Below, in pieces: positions 6,469-30,555 of a stretch of 32,996 nucleotides of DNA. Under the pieces are notes generated by a model, which saw nothing but the letters and a program-made list of their open reading frames with translations, did no database searches and was not told the origin of the DNA. Location: contig CAXTTL010000024.1 in NCBI GenBank assembly GCA_964247135.1, forward strand, positions 1-32,996, in the 5' to 3' direction. Origin of the DNA: an uncultured Deinococcales bacterium. Lineage in GTDB: Bacteria; Deinococcota; Deinococci; Deinococcales; JAAFIG01. A program made the translations under genes and the position numbers. Position 1 is the stretch's first letter. Each line of letters begins with the position of its first letter.

Positions 6469-6625
6469 TTGGGTTTCTCCTTGGGGTTTTGATGGCATCA
6501 AAAAATCCCATCACTATGCTACATGGTAGTGACTTACAAAAAACTAACAAACTGTTTGGCTCGAGTTTTAGAGGGTTTTATGGGGTCTATCGCAGGAGAA
6601 AGTTTTGAGGGTTTGAGTTGATTTG

Positions 6626-6885
6626 GCTATAAGCTGCAAGCCATAAGCTCTAAGGAACGGCGTTTTTGGCTTGCAGCTTGGAGCTTCTTCTTGATCCCAA
6701 GACGCACCTTCTCGACCCCAAAGATGCACCTTCTTGACCATAAAATGCACCTAACGGTCATGGTCGCTGACGGGCTTGGGTCGCTTCGGGCGGGATCGCT
6801 TGACCATTCCCGCTCCTTCTTGAACCTAAGCGTGCACCTTGCGGGCAGGTTCGCTCACGGGCATGGTCGCTTAAAGCTTATCGCC
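6626..6885. repeat. Inverted heptamer tandem-repeat element interrupted by nested micro-elements
   Basis: Left arm GCTATAA-GCTGCAA-GCCATAA-GCTCTAA; right arm GCTTGCA-GCTTGGA-G[insert]CTTAAA-GCTTATC; perfect 13-bp inverted repeat 6631-6643/6667-6679. Confidence 0.75.
6684..6869 (+). mobile_element. Five nested 36-39 nt hairpin micro-elements
   Basis: The region parses without leftover bases into five CTTCTYGA...CGG...TCG units, each with its own complementary stem; a near-identical copy lies at 28872-28907. Mobility is inferred. Confidence 0.75.
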
Positions 6886-6914
6886 CTGCTCGAGAAACCT
6901 ATCGATACAGGCTC

Positions 6915-8084
6915 TTAGACTTTCAACGCCATCACGGGCACAAGCATTTCGGCATTCGACCAGCCGCCGTGCGCCCCCAGCAAAGTCGAAGCGGTTTTGC
7001 GACCAGGGTAAGTCCAGTTGAATTGGATTCCGTCGTGCGCCACAGCGATCAAATCACCAACTCTGGTTCTAAATGTCTCGAGTTCGGGCTTGCCACCGAA
7101 CAAACCCGTGTTCCAAGCTTCAAGTGTCGTCATGGTTTGCGCATATGGTTTCAAATAATCTACCAGTTCCTCTATCGCCCCGTCTTGCACCCGAAAATAC
7201 CTCGAGAGACGCTCACCCGCCGGCGCACCGCGCAACATGCTGCGCAAGATTTTGTCGCGCTCGAGGTGCACCACTTTTTTCGGGTCTAAATCGCGTTGCC
7301 CATGATCGGCGGTCAGGATAAAAAGCGTTTTGCCGTCTTTGGGAAGCATTCTTAAAACCCGAGCCACGCACAAATCCAGCGCCGCCACCTCGTCGCTGGC
7401 GTGCTGGCTGCCAGGTCCGTGCTTGTGGCAAACCGTGTCGTAATCGGGGTAGTAGGCGCAAATGTACTGCGGCGCACCTTGTTTGGGGTAACTCGAGACG
7501 AGGCTGGGAATCGTGTTTGGGCTGAAGTACCCGCCCTGAAACGCGCCCTGCCAGTACCAATCGTTCAAGAACGAACCCTTGTATGCGGCGGGTTGCACGG
7601 CAAAACACTGCACGCCCAGTCGCTCGAGTCTTGCGGTCAGGCTGAGCTGCGTTTTTAAAAAATCTGGATTCTCGAGTTGCGTGGCAGTCTCGAGGTTGGC
7701 GAGCGCAATCATGTCCGTTACGGCGTTCACTTCCTCGAGCCAGAGCGTGTAACCGAGCCAACCCGTTTTGGCGGGTGGGGCTGCCATGTGAATGCTGGTC
7801 ACGGCGCTCATGGTGGTGCTCGGAAAAACGCTGGTGATCGTGGTGGACACCGTGTCTTGCTCGAGCAAGGCTTTGAGGTTTGGGGCATCGCCATCCGCCA
7901 TGTGCCGCTCGAGTTGCCCTTGCCCCAAACCATCGGCAATAAACAGCACCACGCGCTGAACGCCTTCAAACGGCAGTTGGTGCTTTAACGGCGCATAACC
8001 CGTGTTCAAACCAAAATGCGCGGCTATGCTCGAGGAGAGGTTCAGGATGCTGCCGCCGTCGTAGTCTGGTAAAACTTTAAGCAT
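6915..8084 (-). CDS. Alkaline-phosphatase superfamily / type I phosphodiesterase-nucleotide pyrophosphatase protein
   Basis: FIADGLG, SVFPSTT (Thr nucleophile), DTVCHKHG, TADHG and GAHGG motifs. Confidence 0.9.
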   Translation of the reverse strand: MLKVLPDYDGGSILNLSSSIAAHFGLNTGYAPLKHQLPFEGVQRVVLFIADGLGQGQLERHMADGDAPNLKALLEQDTVSTTITSVFPSTTMSAVTSIHMAAPPAKTGWLGYTLWLEEVNAVTDMIALANLETATQLENPDFLKTQLSLTARLERLGVQCFAVQPAAYKGSFLNDWYWQGAFQGGYFSPNTIPSLVSSYPKQGAPQYICAYYPDYDTVCHKHGPGSQHASDEVAALDLCVARVLRMLPKDGKTLFILTADHGQRDLDPKKVVHLERDKILRSMLRGAPAGERLSRYFRVQDGAIEELVDYLKPYAQTMTTLEAWNTGLFGGKPELETFRTRVGDLIAVAHDGIQFNWTYPGRKTASTLLGAHGGWSNAEMLVPVMALKV

Positions 8085-24926: not shown

Positions 24927-27751
24927 ACGCCTCGCAATGCCGCCGCCAATTCGTGCTCCTCGAGCTTCAAGATCACGCCGTGGACCAAAAACGTGATCCG
25001 AACTTCGGGTGAAAGTTCTGGTTTGGCAAGTTTGATGGCTTCGCGGTACAGCGCCAGTTGACGGTGGTACGCCCGAACCCGTTGCGGCAGCGCCTCGTCT
25101 GGTACATCGTCGGTTTTGAAATCCTCGAGAATCCAAGTGCCATTTGGTTCTTGGTACAAACGGTCGATCAAGCCCTGCCAGGTCGTGCCGTTGCGAGAAA
25201 AAGCAAACGGCAATTCCGCAAAATCTTGCGGGCGCTCACTTCGGTCTGGATAGAGGGCATGGTATCTCGAGACAAGCCACCAGGCACGCTCGAGCATGGT
25301 TTGACGCTCCGAATCCGAGTACGGATGCAGGAGGTACTGGGCGGCAAGCACTTGCTGATGTCGAAGGTTGTGGGCTTCGAGGTTTTCGGCAATCGCATAA
25401 TGCGTCAATGTGCCGATCACACGGTCTGATTCTGGAATGCCCATAAATTCCGTCTCGAGCGCGGCGTTTGGGACTTCATCTGGGATTTCGGTGTCGAGTT
25501 CGCTGATGTCGGCAAGTTCTGGGTCAAGCGGTGTGCCACTGGCTTCTGGGGCTTTGCTTGGGGCGCGAACGCGGCGGGCGGGTCGGGCAAATCTGGCTTT
25601 GGCAAGATCAACATCGGCACTAAACCGAGGCTCGAGGATGATGGGCGCAGGCATTTCGGCGGTTTCAAAAACGTTGACCTCGTGGTGCAAAACTTCAATC
25701 CCTGGCATTCCGTCGGGTTTCTCGAGCAACTGTAATTTATTTAAAAGCGTATCCAGCCAAGCCCGAGGTTTGTTGGTGGTTGATCCAGTCATGATAAGAC
25801 GGTCTTTGGCGCGGGTCAGGGCAACGTACAAAAGTCGGTTGCTCTCCCCTTCCGAACGGCGTTTGAGGTGCTCGAGAATGCTGGCATACCGCGTGGCGGT
25901 CAAGCCTTTTTTGGCTCGGGCATTGGGCTTGAGGGCAACTTCACCGTCTGGGTGTACCACCAAATCTGGGCGTTGCGGGTTCTCGCCTCGAGCCAGGTCA
26001 AAGACTGCCGTCACCGGAAACTCGAGTCCCTTGCTGGAATGCACGGTCAAGAGTCGCACGGCGTCGCCCGCCTCGAGCGGTTCGTCGCTTTCGGCTTCAC
26101 TCAACCTGGCACGTTCGAGGAAGCTGAGGGCGGCTCGAGGGTCGCGTAAGCCCCGAGCGGCGAGTTGATAGAGCAGCCCGTCGAGGTTGGCGGTGGCTTG
26201 ACGGTTGACGGCGAGCACGCTGTAACCCAAGAAAACCCAGGCATCTTCGAGCAAAGTCACAGCATCTTTGGCGTCACGGACAATCTCGAGCAGTTCTCGC
26301 AGACGCAAAGTTTCGGGGGCGGATGATTTGCGCAAACCGATGCGAATGTCGTTTTCATTCCGCAAAATTTCCTCGAGATGTTGAAGCGGCAAGTCAATGC
26401 CTGGAATCCTCGAGAGTGCGGAGAGTGCAAACGCAAATTCTGGGGCATCGGGAGCAACGAGCCGCGCCCGCAGCAGCGTGATCGCGTCGCGGATTTCACG
26501 GCGGTCATAATATTTTTGTCCTGCCACCATCAGCATGGGCACAGCCTCGAGCGCCAGGGCAAGCTCGAGCGGCGGCAGGGATGTTCTCGAGCGCACGAGT
26601 ACAGCCATGTCGTGCCAGGGCGTGCCAGATCGGTTGAGTTCACACAATCTTCGCGCCAGAAAAGCAGCTTCGGCGTGGCGTCCAGCCTCGAGGCTGGCGG
26701 CTTGAAAAACGTGCAGTTCGACTCGAGGTTCAAAACCGTCTTCGGGTTTGATGCGCCCTGGTTTGACCTCGCTGGGCAAACCGATTTCGGAAAATTCTGG
26801 GAAGAGCTTCGCGGAGAGGCTTGAGTAAAACGCGCTGAGGGACACACCGTGCCTGTAGGTGGTGGTCAGTGGCGCGAGGGTTTTGGCGCGTTGATAGACG
26901 TCCAAAAAGGCATTCACGTCGGCGTCCCGAAAGGCGTAAATACTCTGCTTGGGATCACCGACCAGCAGCACGCGCTCGAGGTTTAAACTCTGAAAAATCT
27001 TGGCTTGCAACGGGTTGACATCCTGAAATTCATCGACCAGCAAGACCGAAACCCGAGACCTGACGCGCTCGAGCATGTTGGGATCGCAGAGCAATTCCAG
27101 GGTTCTCAGTTCGACATCGGTGGGCGCGAGCGCTCGAGATGCCAGCCGCGACAGGTACAAATTCAAACTGCTTTCAAAGGCTGCCAGCAACGACACCGTG
27201 AGCGCATCGGGTTGGATGCCATCCTCGAGATTTCCAGATCGAAACGGGGCGTAAACGCGTTTGTTGTGTAACGCCTCGAGTGCAGATAATGTACGTTCCC
27301 AACCGAGCGTTGCCAAGGCTTCACCGCCGGGCGCGTCGCGCAACGCCGCCTGTGCCAGGACGCTCGAGGCGGCGTCCCTGAACGTCTCGAGGGATTCGCT
27401 TTCGTCGAGGTTGCTGAATTCTGGGTCGAGGTTGAGCGCGGGAGCGTTTAAACGCAGCAACTCGCGGAAAAAACCGTGAATTGTCGTGATGCTGGCACTG
27501 CCAAGTTCACGCAACGCCACGCGGTACAACTCGAGGTTGGCGGGTTTAAAATTCAGATAACTGCCGTGCAGCACCACCTCGCGCAGACCGGCGCGAAGCC
27601 GTTCGCGCAAATCGATTGCCCCAACCCGAGTGAACGTCACCGCCGCAATCCGCCGAGCCGGTGTAAACCGCAACGCCATCAGGTACTCGAGCACCAAACT
27701 GGTGGTTTTACCCGTTCCAGCCGAAGCCGAACGTACCTCGAGGTTGGTCAT
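24923..27751 (-). CDS. addA: AddA-like UvrD helicase with RecB-type nuclease
   Basis: ASAGTGKT, VTFT, VDEFQD, VGDPKQSIYAFR, TVHSSKGLEF, LLYVALTRAK, and GLIDRL...EDFKT...QLALY; ATGA overlap with addB. Confidence 0.85.
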   Translation of the reverse strand: MTNLEVRSASAGTGKTTSLVLEYLMALRFTPARRIAAVTFTRVGAIDLRERLRAGLREVVLHGSYLNFKPANLELYRVALRELGSASITTIHGFFRELLRLNAPALNLDPEFSNLDESESLETFRDAASSVLAQAALRDAPGGEALATLGWERTLSALEALHNKRVYAPFRSGNLEDGIQPDALTVSLLAAFESSLNLYLSRLASRALAPTDVELRTLELLCDPNMLERVRSRVSVLLVDEFQDVNPLQAKIFQSLNLERVLLVGDPKQSIYAFRDADVNAFLDVYQRAKTLAPLTTTYRHGVSLSAFYSSLSAKLFPEFSEIGLPSEVKPGRIKPEDGFEPRVELHVFQAASLEAGRHAEAAFLARRLCELNRSGTPWHDMAVLVRSRTSLPPLELALALEAVPMLMVAGQKYYDRREIRDAITLLRARLVAPDAPEFAFALSALSRIPGIDLPLQHLEEILRNENDIRIGLRKSSAPETLRLRELLEIVRDAKDAVTLLEDAWVFLGYSVLAVNRQATANLDGLLYQLAARGLRDPRAALSFLERARLSEAESDEPLEAGDAVRLLTVHSSKGLEFPVTAVFDLARGENPQRPDLVVHPDGEVALKPNARAKKGLTATRYASILEHLKRRSEGESNRLLYVALTRAKDRLIMTGSTTNKPRAWLDTLLNKLQLLEKPDGMPGIEVLHHEVNVFETAEMPAPIILEPRFSADVDLAKARFARPARRVRAPSKAPEASGTPLDPELADISELDTEIPDEVPNAALETEFMGIPESDRVIGTLTHYAIAENLEAHNLRHQQVLAAQYLLHPYSDSERQTMLERAWWLVSRYHALYPDRSERPQDFAELPFAFSRNGTTWQGLIDRLYQEPNGTWILEDFKTDDVPDEALPQRVRAYHRQLALYREAIKLAKPELSPEVRITFLVHGVILKLEEHELAAALRGV

Positions 27752-30555
27752 ATCGCTTCCCGACACACATCGCGGTACGAACAATAACGGCAGTGAAAAC
27801 CGCTCGAGGCTGAAATACTGCCCTCTTGCAAGGTTTGATTGGCTTTTTCCAGGGCGGTCATGGATTGTGCCAGACGACGTTGCGCGTAAGGCTTATCAAA
27901 ACCCATCACGCGTTTCGGGGCGTGGTTCAAATCCCAAGCCCAAAGCACCACAGGCACGTTTTGCTCGAGCCAGTGGTTGGCGTACCACCATTCGCGGTGT
28001 CGGGTATCAGACATGTACTCGTCGTAAGCATCGTCGAGGTTTTTCACGACGCGGTACACCTCAACCATTCTGACCTTGCCGCTCGGGTCTTGCCGAATGC
28101 GCACCCCGTCCAGCACAAACTCGAGGTCGTCAATGATTGCGCGGTATCCGAGTTGAATGTCGCTGGCATCGGGACGGCTTGGCACATTTTCTTGCACCGT
28201 CTGCTCGAGTTGCGCCCTGAACTTCGGCGCGAGGTTTGCCAGCGTCGCGCGGTGCGCTTCGGGGGCGACCTCGGACAGATTCTTGCCCTTGTTCTGCCAC
28301 AAATTATTGCGTTGCGCCCTCGTCCAACCCTCGAGCAATTCACCAGAAACCAAACCCGCACCCCTGGCGGGCGCGGGAATCAAACCCTCCGCCCAAGCTT
28401 TGAGCGCACAGACCGCCACCCGCTCGAGTTCGGTGGCTTTGCGAGCCACCCGCACCGAAACTTGATGAACCGAATCTTGAGGCTGGTGAAGATTGGCATT
28501 GAGCGCCGCAAGCTCGAGCGGTGAAGCCGTTGGAAAAACCCGTTTTTGACCGTGCTGCTCGAGTTGCGACAATCTCGGATGCGGTCGGAGGCTCGAGCCT
28601 CGCTCTGCTCTGGCATACGACACGACCAGCAGTTCATCGGCTCGGGTGAAAGCATCATAAAGCTGGGAATCCTCGAGACCATTTAACCTGAACGGAAGTC
28701 GGGCTTCGGTGGTTTGAAGCTCGAGGGTTGGTTCGTCGAGGTCGAGGTCTTGTCCACCCTCATCCCCGACCCTTCTCCCCCCTAGGGAGAAGGGAGTTTT
28801 GGTTATTTCTTGTGTGGCTGAAATATTTTGATTTGATACCTCGAGATTTTCAATTTGATGTAGGGGCGAACCTTCTTGATTCCAAGACGCACCTTCGGGC
28901 GGAATCGCTTGTGTTCGCCCATCACCTCCATTCGGTATCTCGGGATTCCCAATTTCAAGATTTTCTTGCACGAGATTCATTGGAACCTCGAGATTTACCA
29001 GCAATTCCTCGAGTTTGCTGCGTTGTTCTTCTGGAACAAAAAAATCTTCGCCATCACCCGTTTTGTACGCGCCGTCGGTTGCGCCCATCACGAAACTGAT
29101 CTTAAAGCGCCTGCCGCTGGCTTCTTCGGCACTGAGTACCGCCACGCCGCGTCCAAGGTCTTCATGGGCGACGGTGACGCTGGCGAGCAGGCTTTGCACC
29201 CAGTCGGTGAAGACCGCACCTTCGACCTGGGCTTGGTTGCCGAGGATGCGGGCGGCTTCTCGGGCGATCACTTTGGCGGTGTCGCAAAAACTGGCGTCTT
29301 TGAAGTGACGCTCGAGCAGGGTTTCAAACCAGTGAATCAATTGCTCGCTCGAGGCGTGCTGCGGTGGTTGCGCAATCTGTTTGATACGCTCGAGGGCAGC
29401 GAGGGCGTTTGGATCGTCGCAGACCAGGGCGTAAGCGTCCAGTCCGGCGGCAATGCCGTTTTGCTCGAGTTTTTCTGCCAGCAGCAGGACATCGGGTTCG
29501 AGCGCGGCGAGGGTTCGCAGATCGCGGGCTGGGTAATCTCGGGCGGGGGCGCGGAGCAACGCCTCGAGTTGCCGCCCGTTGGGGGTCTCGAGGATTGAGC
29601 CGCTGGTTTCTGGGGCGATGGGCACGCCGTATTCGCGTCCCAATGCCTCGAGCACCCGAGCGATGGCGGGGTGCGGGATGATGATGCAAATGTCTTGACT
29701 CGGCGTGCCGTTTTGAAGGCGTTGTTTGATTTCGCGCAGCACCCCTCGAGCCTCCTCGACGGGGTTGGCGTAGGTCTCCAAACGCGTGATTTTGGGCATT
29801 CCAGCCCAGGGTTTGCCTTTGGCGTTCAAGTACCTGATTTTGGCGTTGAAGGCGGTAGCAATTTGCTCGAGTTCTGGTTTGCGAAGTGGGTGCGCCCAGG
29901 CTTCAGAATGCGTGTCGGGCAAGCCTGAGGGTAGGGTCACGAGGGTGCTTTTGGCGAGGCTGGCGAGGGCGCAGAATATCCGCAATTCGCTGGGGTTGAA
30001 ACTTCGGTAGCCGTCAACGATCAAATGCGCATTCAAGGCTTGCGGGTTGGTGGTTAAAAGTTGCGCGGTGCGAATCCGAACGTCGTCGAGGTCTTGCAAC
30101 ACGCCAAGCTCGAGTTCGGTTTGATAGGCGTGAAACACCTGAAACAAAATATGCTGGTACGCCTCTTCAGACCCGAGGGGCGCGACCAGGTTGCGTTTGA
30201 ATTCGGCGATAGCCCTGGCATAAAGCCTCGCCTCGCCAGGGTTGACGTTGCGTTTTAATATTTTCTCGAGCACCCGTGCCGTTAATGCCACGCGCCCAGG
30301 ATTCAGCACAATCGCGCGGTTTTCGCCCAGACGATCCAGCACGCGGTAGGCAATGTTTTGCAGGTTCGTGACTTCGACGCCCAAACTCGCACCCGCACTT
30401 GCCAGTCGCTCGAGCCAGCCTGAACGCTGCCCTGGCAGGGTCAGCACAATGACCCGCTCCCCCGCCGTCGCCAACTCGAGCGCCCGAGCGACGGCAGCGC
30501 CGGTTTTGCCGCTGGCGGCGGGTCCAGTCAAAAGTTGTGCGCTCGCCGTGGTCAC
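27748..30555 (-). CDS. addB: AddB-like partner subunit (inactive helicase fold, Fe-S cysteines, degenerate nuclease)
   Basis: N-terminal GPAASGKT, LYDAFTRA, Cys in VCALK plus terminal CRYCSYRDVC; translationally coupled to addA. Confidence 0.78.
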   Translation of the reverse strand: MTTASAQLLTGPAASGKTGAAVARALELATAGERVIVLTLPGQRSGWLERLASAGASLGVEVTNLQNIAYRVLDRLGENRAIVLNPGRVALTARVLEKILKRNVNPGEARLYARAIAEFKRNLVAPLGSEEAYQHILFQVFHAYQTELELGVLQDLDDVRIRTAQLLTTNPQALNAHLIVDGYRSFNPSELRIFCALASLAKSTLVTLPSGLPDTHSEAWAHPLRKPELEQIATAFNAKIRYLNAKGKPWAGMPKITRLETYANPVEEARGVLREIKQRLQNGTPSQDICIIIPHPAIARVLEALGREYGVPIAPETSGSILETPNGRQLEALLRAPARDYPARDLRTLAALEPDVLLLAEKLEQNGIAAGLDAYALVCDDPNALAALERIKQIAQPPQHASSEQLIHWFETLLERHFKDASFCDTAKVIAREAARILGNQAQVEGAVFTDWVQSLLASVTVAHEDLGRGVAVLSAEEASGRRFKISFVMGATDGAYKTGDGEDFFVPEEQRSKLEELLVNLEVPMNLVQENLEIGNPEIPNGGDGRTQAIPPEGASWNQEGSPLHQIENLEVSNQNISATQEITKTPFSLGGRRVGDEGGQDLDLDEPTLELQTTEARLPFRLNGLEDSQLYDAFTRADELLVVSYARAERGSSLRPHPRLSQLEQHGQKRVFPTASPLELAALNANLHQPQDSVHQVSVRVARKATELERVAVCALKAWAEGLIPAPARGAGLVSGELLEGWTRAQRNNLWQNKGKNLSEVAPEAHRATLANLAPKFRAQLEQTVQENVPSRPDASDIQLGYRAIIDDLEFVLDGVRIRQDPSGKVRMVEVYRVVKNLDDAYDEYMSDTRHREWWYANHWLEQNVPVVLWAWDLNHAPKRVMGFDKPYAQRRLAQSMTALEKANQTLQEGSISASSGFHCRYCSYRDVCREAI
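28756..28800 (+). repeat. ~45-nt palindromic dispersed repeat, copy 3, inside addB coding sequence
   Basis: ACCCTCATCCCCGA-CCCTTCTCCC-cccta-GGGAGAAGGG-AGTTTT; translated as KTPFSLGGRRVGDEG on the minus strand. Confidence 0.85.
28860..28920 (+). repeat. GTAG-type REP-like palindrome interrupted by a 36-nt micro-element (28872-28907), inside addB
   Basis: GTAG-GGGCGAAC[36 nt]CTTGT-GTTCGCCC; the insert matches the outer halves at 6687-6707 and 6784-6798 at 34/36 nt. Confidence 0.8.

What the first reader, a model, noticed from the sequence alone, without database searches (positions are those of the whole stretch)
6684..6869. Nested stack of 36-39 nt hairpin micro-elements that insert at CT dinucleotides
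Seen: the region parses exactly into five nested copies of one element. The outer copy is ctt(6684-86)+cttgaccattcccgctc(6799-6815)+ctcacgggcatggtcg(6854-69). Inside it lies cttcttgatcccaagacgcac(6687-6707)...cttcgggcgggatcg(6784-98), which contains cttctcgaccccaaagatgcac(6708-29)...ctgacgggcttgggtcg(6767-83), which contains intact cttcttgaccataaaatgcacctaacggtcatggtcg(6730-66). A fifth copy, cttcttgaacctaagcgtgcaccttgcgggcaggttcg, is at 6816-53. Each left half pairs with its own right half through a different stem: GACCAT/ATGGTC twice, GATCCC/GGGATC, CGACCC/GGGTCG, GAACCT/AGGTTC, and GATTCC/GGAATC in the sixth copy at 28872. This is compensatory variation. An inner CT(N1-2)CG loop is conserved. 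All six copies begin with CT and are followed by CT, and removing them restores the host sequence. Known: E. coli TnpA-REP (RAYT, HUH family) cleaves ssDNA at CT; IS110-family IS621 uses a CT core and targets REPs; 21-27 nt SDR elements occur in Nostoc. Inference: a structure-defined, non-autonomous mobile element far smaller than typical MITEs that targets hairpins, including its own loop, and is mobilised by an enzyme encoded elsewhere.
Basis: partly seen in the sequence, partly recalled or inferred. Interest (0 to 1): 0.92.

Follow-up and report, generated by a model that had tools for sequence, protein, structure and literature searches.

The report
Nested 37-base hairpin mobile micro-elements
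A family of hairpin-forming DNA elements only 36-40 bases long has repeatedly inserted into other repeats and into its own loop in this bacterium and its relatives, which makes it one of the smallest mobile DNAs seen, and the enzyme that moves it is still unknown.

Summary
Window 6684-6869 parses exactly into five nested copies of one 36-39 nt hairpin element, and a sixth lies at 28872-28907.

It is a real family.
- At least 143 copies occur in this draft Deinococcales genome, against 0 in a reversed-genome control.
- It was found in 17 of the 18 other genomes of the same family-level lineage and in 0 of 42 genomes of four neighbouring families.
- The stems covary.

It is mobile.
- Precise removal recreates an exact empty paralogous site for 77 of 137 copies, and for 0 of 137 under any 1-4 nt duplication model.
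- Orthologous sites are filled in one species and empty in another.
- The target is [A/C][C/G]^CTTC. C follows the insertion point in 134 of 137 copies and CT in 106 of 137.
- Hosts include REP hairpin loops and the element's own loop.
- Copies within a cluster are always co-oriented.

The mobilising enzyme was not found. I infer, but have not shown, a single-strand HUH (RAYT-like) cut-and-join mechanism.

An IS110 element inserts at the same loop position, and its bridge-RNA guide matches each target in 8 of 8 copies. It parasitises the micro-element and is probably not what moves it.

The closest known kind is the cyanobacterial small dispersed repeats (SDRs).

The parts
6684..6869 (+). Whole nest of five micro-element copies, all in the same orientation.
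   Evidence: The ssDNA fold of the block gives nested hairpins at -32.2 kcal/mol, z -2.65.
6730..6766 (+). Innermost intact copy (GACCAT/ATGGTC stem), inserted in the loop of the 6708-6783 copy at GCAC^CT.
   Evidence: CM score 54.1 bits. ssDNA hairpin -4.3 kcal/mol.
6708..6783 (+). Second-level copy, in pieces 6708-6729 and 6767-6783, split by the 6730-6766 copy.
   Evidence: Recovered at level 1. After removal of the inner copy, the junction matches intact copies elsewhere (2 matches).
6687..6798 (+). Third-level copy (GATCCC/GGGATC stem), in pieces 6687-6707 and 6784-6798.
   Evidence: Recovered at level 2. The junction after removal of the copy inside it (6708-6783) matches 6 places.
6684..6869 (+). 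Outermost copy, in pieces 6684-6686, 6799-6815 and 6854-6869. It is interrupted twice: in its 5' tail and in its loop.
   Evidence: Recovered at level 3. An intact relative of this variant lies in the same host repeat on contig C58.
6816..6853 (+). Intact copy (GAACCT/AGGTTC stem) in the loop of the outermost copy.
   Evidence: CM score 49.8 bits. ssDNA hairpin -8.8 kcal/mol.
6573..6919 (.). Lineage-specific 347-nt block that carries the nest. It is flanked by TTAGA at 6568-6572 and 6915-6919. The part outside the nest belongs to another dispersed repeat of about 120 nt.
   Evidence: Absent from the orthologous site in all 5 same-genus genomes. Paralogs of the host repeat run uninterrupted across the nest's insertion point, for example on C248 and C53.
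28872..28907 (+). Sixth copy (GATTCC/GGAATC stem).
   Evidence: CM score 52.9 bits. The orthologous REP site holds a GACCAT-type copy in G005 and G002, and both the REP and the element are missing in G004.
28860..28920 (+). REP-type hairpin with a GTAGGGG head that hosts the sixth copy at the 5' edge of its loop (pieces 28860-28871 and 28908-28920).
   Evidence: The empty form occurs 7 times in the genome. REP families with GTAGGG heads are abundant.
27748..30555 (-). AddB-like ORF of 935 aa that stays open through the REP and the sixth copy.
   Evidence: Pfam ADDB_N scores 31.5 bits against a cut-off of 26.6.

Best explanation
These are copies of a lineage-specific, non-autonomous mobile DNA element of 36-40 nt.

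Anatomy:
- a conserved unpaired 5' tail, CTTCTT;
- a 6-bp stem whose sequence differs between subfamilies but always pairs;
- an A-rich bulge;
- a short GC inner stem;
- a conserved loop, ACCT-N1-2-CGG.

Shown:
- The element is added to DNA as an exact block with no target duplication, immediately 5' of a C. The preferred target is [A/C][C/G]^CTTC, which mimics the element's own 5' end.
- It often lands in exposed loops of other palindromic repeats and in its own loop, which gives nests, or beside an existing copy, which gives tandems. Within a cluster the orientation is always the same.

Inferred:
- It moves as a folded single strand.
- A host-encoded HUH-type tyrosine enzyme of the RAYT / IS200 TnpA kind cuts next to the C at both ends and at the target, then rejoins the strands.
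- I put about 0.4 on this enzyme class. About 0.85 applies to the element being a genuinely mobile micro-element.
For: Family and specificity:
- 143 copies against 0 in the reversed genome.
- CM hits in the window's own genome and 17 of 18 other genomes of the same family-level lineage, and in 0 of 42 genomes of four other families of the order.
- The titled public hits that pass the hairpin test are all Deinococcales or Deinococcota MAGs.

Structure: compensatory stems; at least 18 stem types.

Precise insertion:
- 77 of 137 sites have an exact empty junction elsewhere with no duplication, and 0 of 137 do with 1-4 nt of duplication.
- Of 14 aligned orthologous pairs, 8 show the empty junction in this genome with at most 2 mismatches, and a ninth with 3.
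- One REP site carries different subfamilies in different species.
- The whole nest postdates the split from 5 congeners.

Target: +1 C in 85 of 88 unique sites, +2 T in 63, +3 T in 44, +4 C in 40, and -1 C or G in 78.

Strand-specific targeting:
- 0 of 20 multi-copy clusters have mixed orientation.
- In the REP loop, both strands are used, each time 5' of a C.

Not an RNA-level feature: orientation relative to the upstream gene is 48 same and 47 opposite.

HUH plausibility:
- E. coli TnpA-REP cuts ssDNA between the C and the T of CT and can transfer strands (PMC3479197 passages).
- RAYT-like genes occur in 17 of 19 genomes of the lineage.
Against: - No enzyme is tied to the element. Only 1 of 14 RAYT or IS200 loci has a copy nearby. 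No inverted pair of copies flanks a transposase-like ORF. The only IS200-type element has unrelated end hairpins.
- The element lacks the GTAG head that RAYT needs in E. coli.
- G011 has 4 RAYT-like hits but only 4 copies of the element.
- The association of orientation with local GC skew is weak (54 against 37 of 91 clusters, p = 0.03), unlike the strong lagging-strand bias reported for IS200/IS605.
- Loop targeting was not significant in a crude fold test.
- 19 sites lie at the foot of a stem rather than in a loop.
- The genome is 84% complete in 386 contigs, so a mobiliser gene may simply be unassembled.
Confidence: 0.7

Rival explanations
1. The resident IS110-family bridge-RNA recombinase moves the micro-elements, using the same CT core at which it inserts itself.
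For: - All 8 IS110 copies examined sit at GCAC^CT in a micro-element loop, the same bond used by nested copies, and are bounded by CT on both sides.
- In IS621, a 22-bp donor suffices when the bridge RNA is supplied in trans (PMC11208160 passage).
Against: - IS110 homologues were found in only 8 of 19 genomes of the lineage, while micro-elements were found in 18 of 19. G005, for example, is 92% complete in 80 contigs with 101 CM hits and no IS110. MAGs often lose IS copies, so this evidence is not decisive.
- The donor-loop guides match the IS ends (ACGGCTG-CT and CT-TGTAAG), not the micro-element ends.
- Micro-element targets share only about 4-6 nt, whereas bridge RNAs read 8-14 nt.
- A 37-bp double-stranded circle is physically implausible. 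This last point is my inference.
Confidence: 0.08
2. A conservative site-specific recombinase (tyrosine or serine type, possibly acting on folded single strands as integron integrases do on attC) recombines a CTTC core that the element's end junction shares with its targets.
For: - The target motif copies the element's own 5' end, so CT(TC) stands at both junctions with no net duplication.
- Tandem arrays would follow from integration beside an existing copy.
- Recognition appears to be by structure plus a bulge, with a variable stem sequence.
Against: - No candidate gene is linked to the element.
- 31 of 137 sites lack CT after the element, and only C is near-universal. That is little identity for a crossover region.
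- The element is too short to make a double-stranded circle.
Confidence: 0.1
3. The repeats are not mobile. They arose by local duplication or slippage, are assembly artefacts of short reads, or are kept as RNA structures such as terminators.
For: - The genomes are short-read MAGs, and the repeats are shorter than a read.
- Copies are more frequent between convergent genes (29 clusters) than between divergent genes (11 clusters).
Against: - Nested neighbours belong to different subfamilies, so they are not local duplicates.
- The same behaviour appears in independent assemblies of many species.
- Filled and empty sites are exact, both between paralogs and between orthologs.
- There is no orientation bias relative to transcription (48 against 47).
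- There is no Rfam match.
Confidence: 0.03

Closest known systems
Small dispersed repeats (SDR4-6, especially SDR5) of heterocyst-forming cyanobacteria (Elhai et al. 2008, Genome Res 18:1484)
   Same: Both are very small, non-coding, dispersed repeats that are inserted precisely at a defined position of another short repeat, and the mobilising mechanism is unknown for both. SDR5 is a 21-nt module inserted between the 3rd and 4th bases of HIP1, and its function was still called unknown in 2026 (passages in PMC4390886, PMC5861425 and PMC13756078). That SDRs form hairpins and nest inside one another is my recollection of the 2008 paper, which is not held.
   Different: - Different phylum (Deinococcota against Cyanobacteria).
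- Longer (36-40 nt against 21-27 nt, the latter range recalled).
- Different target (^CTTC, in REP loops and its own loop, not the host's iterated palindrome).
- Sequence similarity could not be tested, because no SDR sequences were available to me.
REP / REPIN elements moved by RAYT (TnpA-REP) transposases
   Same: Both are imperfect hairpins of 20-40 nt with covarying stems, present in many copies, confined to a lineage, persistent over long times and sometimes inserted in frame in genes. RAYT cuts ssDNA at CT. This genome has GTAGGG-headed REPs and RAYT-like genes.
   Different: - No GTAG, GTGG or CGTC-family head.
- Never arranged as inverted dimers (0 of 20 clusters mixed).
- Not regularly found flanking RAYT genes.
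- It inserts into REP loops as a separate entity.
IS200/IS605 single-strand transposons and their miniature derivatives
   Same: Both lack a target duplication, are defined by hairpins rather than terminal inverted repeats, and have a short sequence-specific target.
   Different: - One hairpin instead of one at each end.
- The conserved target motif lies 3' of the insertion point instead of 5'.
- The resident IS200-type element has unrelated ends.
- No strong strand bias was seen.
Classical bacterial MITEs (Correia/NEMIS, RUP, ERIC, Nezha)
   Same: Both are non-autonomous, dispersed, able to form hairpins and sometimes inserted within genes.
   Different: MITEs are 70-300 bp with 15-30 bp terminal inverted repeats (PMC3733652 passage). 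That they usually duplicate the target is my recollection. Here the element is 36-40 nt and no duplication is seen (0 of 137).
IS621 / ISPpu9-type IS110 elements that target REPs through a bridge RNA
   Same: This parallel applies to the IS found inside the micro-element loops: CT core, left-end non-coding RNA with two internal-loop stem-loops, guides matching target and donor, and a repeated palindrome as its safe harbour.
   Different: The target here is the micro-element loop, not a REP. The micro-element has in turn inserted into the IS's donor-binding loop in 6 of 8 copies.

Membership tests
REP/REPIN-RAYT | Imperfect palindrome of 20-40 nt, present in many copies. | tested here: met
   36-40 nt, at least 143 copies, stems covary.
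REP/REPIN-RAYT | Conserved GTAG or GTGG head 0-2 nt 5' of the stem; or a CGTC head with an 8-9 bp stem, a 4-5 nt loop and a CCA tail. | tested here: not met
   The head is CTTCTT in 118 of 141 parsed copies and CGTCTT in only 5. Stem, bulge and loop do not fit the CGTC families as described in PMC3733652 section 6.
REP/REPIN-RAYT | Copies flank a cognate single-copy RAYT gene. | tested here: not met
   No copy lies within 700 bp of the 4 Y1_Tnp hits in this genome. Only 1 CM hit occurs in 14 RAYT or IS200 loci of 7 genomes. The copy next to the C383 RAYT-like ORF sits inside a REP.
REP/REPIN-RAYT | Frequent inverted dimers (REPIN/BIME). | tested here: not met
   0 of 20 multi-copy clusters contain both orientations.
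SDR (Elhai 2008) | Mobile repeat under 40 nt, inserted precisely, with nesting. | tested here: met
   That SDRs nest is recalled, not read.
SDR (Elhai 2008) | Sequence or structure family SDR1-8; confined to Nostocaceae; SDR5 inserts in HIP1. | not testable with these tools
   The paper is not held. The taxon and target differ. The abundant CTCGAG palindrome of this genome is not the usual insertion site.
MITE | Terminal inverted repeats, target-site duplication, 70-300 bp. | tested here: not met
   No duplication in 0 of 137 sites. Length is 36-40 nt. Only a 6-bp subterminal stem is present.
IS200/IS605-type single-strand element | No duplication; sub-terminal hairpin at each end; insertion 3' of a fixed tetra- or pentanucleotide; cognate TnpA with matching ends. 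| tested here: inconclusive
   The absence of duplication is met. There is a single hairpin only, the conserved motif lies 3' of the insertion point, and the resident IS200-type ends are unrelated.
IS200/IS605-type single-strand element | Orientation bias towards the lagging-strand template. | tested here: inconclusive
   Orientation against local GC skew is 54 against 37 of 91 clusters, Fisher p = 0.03, on draft contigs.
IS110 donor (mobilised by a bridge recombinase) | Element ends match the donor-binding loop of a bridge RNA, and the element co-occurs with the recombinase. | tested here: not met
   The guides match the IS ends only. The recombinase was found in 8 of 19 genomes and the element in 18 of 19.

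The most novel reading that the evidence does not exclude
The element would be the smallest transposable unit with a defined target: a single 37-nt hairpin moved as single-stranded DNA by a dedicated, still unrecognised host-encoded enzyme, not a classical RAYT or IS transposase.

On the same reading, its hypervariable 1-2 nt loop position is kept diverse by an arms race with an IS110 element. That element's bridge-RNA guide must match this position in order to invade the loop.
Probability: 0.2. Interest if true: 0.85.

Novelty: new variant of a known kind. Interest (0 to 1): 0.62.

Why it matters
How very short palindromic repeats such as REPs and SDRs multiply has been an open question for decades. 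Their insertion events are rarely visible.

Here the events are unusually legible:
- exact boundaries;
- no duplication;
- a clear target motif;
- nests that record the order of insertion;
- hot-spot sites that turn over between species;
- many subfamilies marked by their stems.

That gives a concrete substrate (a 37-nt oligonucleotide) and a target (^CTTC in a loop) for biochemical tests with the few candidate enzymes.

The element also matters for annotation. Copies sit in frame inside real genes, such as an AddB-like nuclease gene and IS110 transposase genes, and they break short-read assemblies.

Finally, the IS110 copies offer a natural series of bridge-RNA guides retargeted to variants of one loop.

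Tried and rejected
- My first pattern search was mis-specified (gap too long) and found nothing. It was replaced by scripts.
- Rfam gave no match for the window, for the IS110 locus, or for 6550-6950. The only hit was mir-879 at E = 0.66, which is chance.
- Public runs: one run with a small share of the words, held as contigs only. Six fragmentary pieces were laid, with no joints, so this says nothing about current activity.
- IS200-type element on C249 as a parent: its end hairpins are unrelated.
- IS91-type Y2 transposase: no hit, but the control genomes were also silent, so this is uninformative.
- Pairs of copies flanking a gene: none in inverted orientation around a transposase-like ORF.
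- Larger insertions in micro-element loops of this genome: only the IS110. The same scan showed that my detector misses at least one subfamily, so 143 copies is a lower bound.
- Fold test of loop targeting: no enrichment by my crude criterion.
- CGTC-tagged REP super-family: considered because 5 copies start with CGTC, and rejected on architecture.
Elhai et al. 2008 is not held. Supplements were not consulted.
- Literature searches found no description of this element. One search returned 2 irrelevant papers. I ran no search specific to Deinococcales repeats. This does not prove that the element is unpublished.

Full report

- Each of the five nest members, once its insert is removed, is a 36-39 nt sequence of one design. 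The sixth copy at 28872-28907 has the same design.
- The design is: CTTCTT tail, 6-nt stem arm, A-rich bulge, GC, ACCT-N1-2-CGG, GC, complementary arm, G.
- A script knew only the head motif, a loop motif and a requirement for 5 of 6 stem pairs. It found copies, excised them and rescanned. It rebuilt the same nest on its own at levels 0 to 3.
- In the whole 5.09-Mb draft genome (386 contigs) it found 147 hits. I judged 4 false by eye, which leaves 143: 127 at level 0 (131 hits before dropping the 4 false ones), 14 at level 1, and 1 each at levels 2 and 3. The reversed genome gave 0.
- A later scan for orphan halves showed further copies of at least one subfamily that the detector misses, so 143 is a lower bound.

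**2. Structure.**

- A covariance model built from 66 distinct copies recovered 93 copies in the sequences held.
- On that alignment, 90.1% of cells form standard pairs, against 77.1% in shuffles. There are 98 cells with changes on both sides against 34.3, reached by 0 of 500 shuffles. With the 3' partner slid, only 28-48% pair.
- The alignment was fitted to the model and the copies are related, so these figures lean towards the structure. Even so, 20 stem types in this genome and 18 in the relatives' loci all pair.
- As single-stranded DNA, the intact window copies fold at -4.3 to -8.8 kcal/mol, with z from -2.1 to -3.1. For the copy at 28872, the minimum-energy fold is a different small hairpin.
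- The whole nest folds into nested hairpins at -32.2 kcal/mol, z -2.65.
- No Rfam family matches.

**3. Mobility.**

*Paralogous empty sites.* For each copy I joined the 10 nt on either side.
- 77 of 137 testable junctions occur exactly elsewhere in the genome, up to 45 times for REP hosts.
- Removing 1-4 further bases, which models a target duplication, gave 0 of 137.

*Orthologous sites.* I compared 15 sites in loci of other Deinococcales MAGs with this genome, and 14 could be aligned.
- In 8 of the 14, the relative's copy or copies are absent here and the empty junction is present with at most 2 mismatches. A ninth has 3 mismatches and a clean alignment.
- One case has an outer copy shared by both species and an inner copy present in only one.

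*The window's own copies.*
- At the REP site of the sixth copy, this genome has a GATTCC-stem copy. G005 and G002 have a GACCAT-stem copy at the same bond. G004 lacks both the REP and the element. That implies turnover or repeated use of a hot spot.
- The nest lies in a 347-nt block (6573-6919, flanked by TTAGA) that is absent from all five same-genus genomes. So the host repeat and five micro-element insertions accumulated after those species split.
- Paralogs of the host repeat are uninterrupted at the insertion point.

**4. Target and orientation.**

- The base after the element is C in 134 of 137 copies and the dinucleotide is CT in 106.
- After full excision, 104 outermost host sites (88 unique) give this profile: -2 A or C in 71; -1 C or G in 78; +1 C in 85; +2 T in 63; +3 T in 44; +4 C in 40. 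The target is therefore [A/C][C/G]^CTTC, a mimic of the element's own 5' end.
- Because the element begins with C and is followed by C, the break could lie before or after that C.
- Hosts by my rough sorting are: own loop 29, REP hairpins with GTAGGG heads 25, a CTCATCCCCRACC^CTTCTC repeat 19, tandem neighbours 13, and other 51.
- In one REP family, the element is found in both orientations, each time 5' of a C of the loop on the strand concerned.
- Within clusters, orientation is never mixed: 0 of 20 multi-copy clusters among 111.
- Orientation shows no relation to the upstream gene (48 same, 47 opposite). It shows only a weak relation to local GC skew (54 against 37 of 91 clusters, p = 0.03).
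- A crude test of whether sites fall in predicted hairpin loops gave 38 of 104, against 37% of 2000 random ^CT sites. The sites do lie in more stable local folds, with a mean of -13.3 against -10.3 kcal/mol. Loop targeting is therefore suggested by the REP and self-loop cases but is not shown in general.

**5. Distribution.**

- A scan of one genome per species for a loose pattern hit many records named Deinococcales or Deinococcota MAGs, several times each, plus single hits in unrelated taxa. That number of single hits is about what chance allows.
- Only the Deinococcales and Deinococcota hits passed the hairpin test, apart from 2 false ones.
- The covariance model found the element in this genome and in 17 of 18 other genomes of the same family-level lineage (five genera). 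It found it in 0 of 42 genomes of four neighbouring families.
- Counts per genome saturate near 100-120 because only 110 candidates are scored. G011, a one-contig genome, has 4 and G015 has none.

**6. What moves it.** This was not resolved.

- The genome has four Y1_Tnp hits: one IS200-type TnpA, whose end hairpins are unrelated, and RAYT-like genes flanked by GTAGGG REPs.
- RAYT-like genes occur in 17 of 19 genomes of the lineage. But only 1 of 14 RAYT or IS200 loci has a micro-element nearby, and no inverted pair of copies brackets a transposase-like ORF.
- The published biochemistry of E. coli TnpA-REP makes an HUH single-strand mechanism the best fit to exact, duplication-free insertion next to a C. 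It cleaves ssDNA between the C and the T of CT, on either side of the hairpin, and transfers strands (passages of PMC3479197).
- The E. coli enzyme needs a GTAG guide, which this element lacks. I therefore give the HUH class about 0.4.

**7. The IS110 element.**

- The single IS110-family gene of this genome has the DEDD_Tnp_IS110 and Transposase_20 domains. It lies in an IS that interrupts a micro-element loop exactly at GCAC^CT, inside a REP.
- Seven further copies in seven other genomes do the same.
- The left-end non-coding region folds, by RNAalifold on eight copies, into two stem-loops with internal loops. 11 of 39 pairs show compensatory change. This is the published bridge-RNA layout (PMC11208160 passages).
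- In the first stem-loop, the 5' internal loop repeats the left half of the target (…GCAC + C).
- In the same stem-loop, the 3' internal loop is complementary to CT-N1-2-CGG of that copy's own right flank. This holds in 8 of 8 copies, although N1-2 differs among them (T, GA, AA, AT, TA).
- The second-loop guides match the IS's own ends.
- This IS is therefore a specialised parasite of the micro-element loop.
- It is unlikely to be the mobiliser. It was found in only 8 of 19 genomes. Its donor guides do not match the micro-element ends. And micro-element targets are too varied.
- Conversely, a micro-element has inserted into the 5' internal loop of the donor-binding stem-loop (GAACGG^CTGC) in 6 of 8 IS copies, from two different subfamilies. 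Two copies lack it.

**8. Comparison with known kinds.**

- *SDRs.* The nearest known kind is the small dispersed repeats of Nostocaceae. They are tiny repeats inserted precisely, and the function of SDR5 was still called unknown in 2026 (passages). I could not read the original paper, so nesting and hairpins in SDRs are recalled.
- *REPs.* The element is REP-like in size and evolution but fails the defining head, dimer and RAYT-flank tests.
- *Other kinds.* It is not a MITE, and it is not a clear IS200/IS605 derivative.
- *Verdict.* I rate it a new variant of a known kind: very small mobile palindromic repeats, here in a new phylum with a new target rule.

**9. Limits.**

- All genomes are short-read MAGs, and this one is 84% complete.
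- Kin are not independent.
- The one public run found gave only fragmentary contigs.
- Supplementary files were not seen.

Noticed in passing
L119 (G000:C51) 1264-2454; also L146-L150, L152, L153: An IS110-family element of about 1.16-1.27 kb always sits at GCAC^CT of a micro-element loop. Its putative bridge-RNA right-target guide is complementary to the variable loop bases of its own target in 8 of 8 copies from 8 genomes.
   Followed up: yes
L119 1375-1413 and the same place in L146, L147, L149, L152, L153: A micro-element copy, from two different subfamilies, lies inside the 5' internal loop of the IS110 donor-binding stem-loop. L148 and L150 lack it. IS copies that carry it are found at different genomic sites, so the IS seems to tolerate it.
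   Followed up: partly
Loop position between ACCT and CGG of every copy, e.g. window 6754-6755: This 1-2 nt position is hypervariable. There are 12 variants among 55 copies of one subfamily, while the flanking ACCT (53 of 55) and CGGGC (54 of 55) are nearly fixed. The cause is unknown. It is the position that the IS110 guide must match.
   Followed up: partly
Whole genome; in the window, e.g. 6560-6565 and 6889-6894: CTCGAG occurs 33,925 times (6.7 per kb), ten times more than the next palindromic hexamer. GAGCTC (0), GGGCCC (1) and CGGCCG (3) are almost absent. Loci of relatives also have 3.7-9.1 CTCGAG per kb. This resembles the highly iterated palindromes of cyanobacteria.
   Followed up: partly
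Window 27748-30555 (-): An AddB-like 935-aa ORF stays open through a REP, the sixth micro-element copy and another repeat. The inserted stretch varies between congeners.
   Followed up: partly
G000:C383 523-1215 (-): A RAYT-like ORF reads in frame through a REP plus a micro-element lying between its HUH and tyrosine motifs. Many RAYT homologues in the lineage match in two pieces. In-frame REP inserts at this place are described for RAYT subclass 2.4 (PMC6006769 passage).
   Followed up: partly
L146 (G001:C261) and L147 (G004:C171), inside the IS110 transposase ORF: 36-nt micro-element copies lie inside the recombinase coding sequence at two different places. The G001 frame stays open at 384 aa, while the G004 copy has two stops.
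   Followed up: no
Window 6573-6683 and 6870-6919: The DNA that hosts the nest is itself a lineage-specific insertion flanked by TTAGA. Part of it belongs to a dispersed repeat of about 120 nt with about 10 paralogs.
   Followed up: partly
G000:C6, C268, C79, C78 and others: A further subfamily, whose head is followed by GCTCGT and which ends in ACTCGCG, does not fit the 6-bp stem rule and was missed by my detector. It forms tandem arrays.
   Followed up: no
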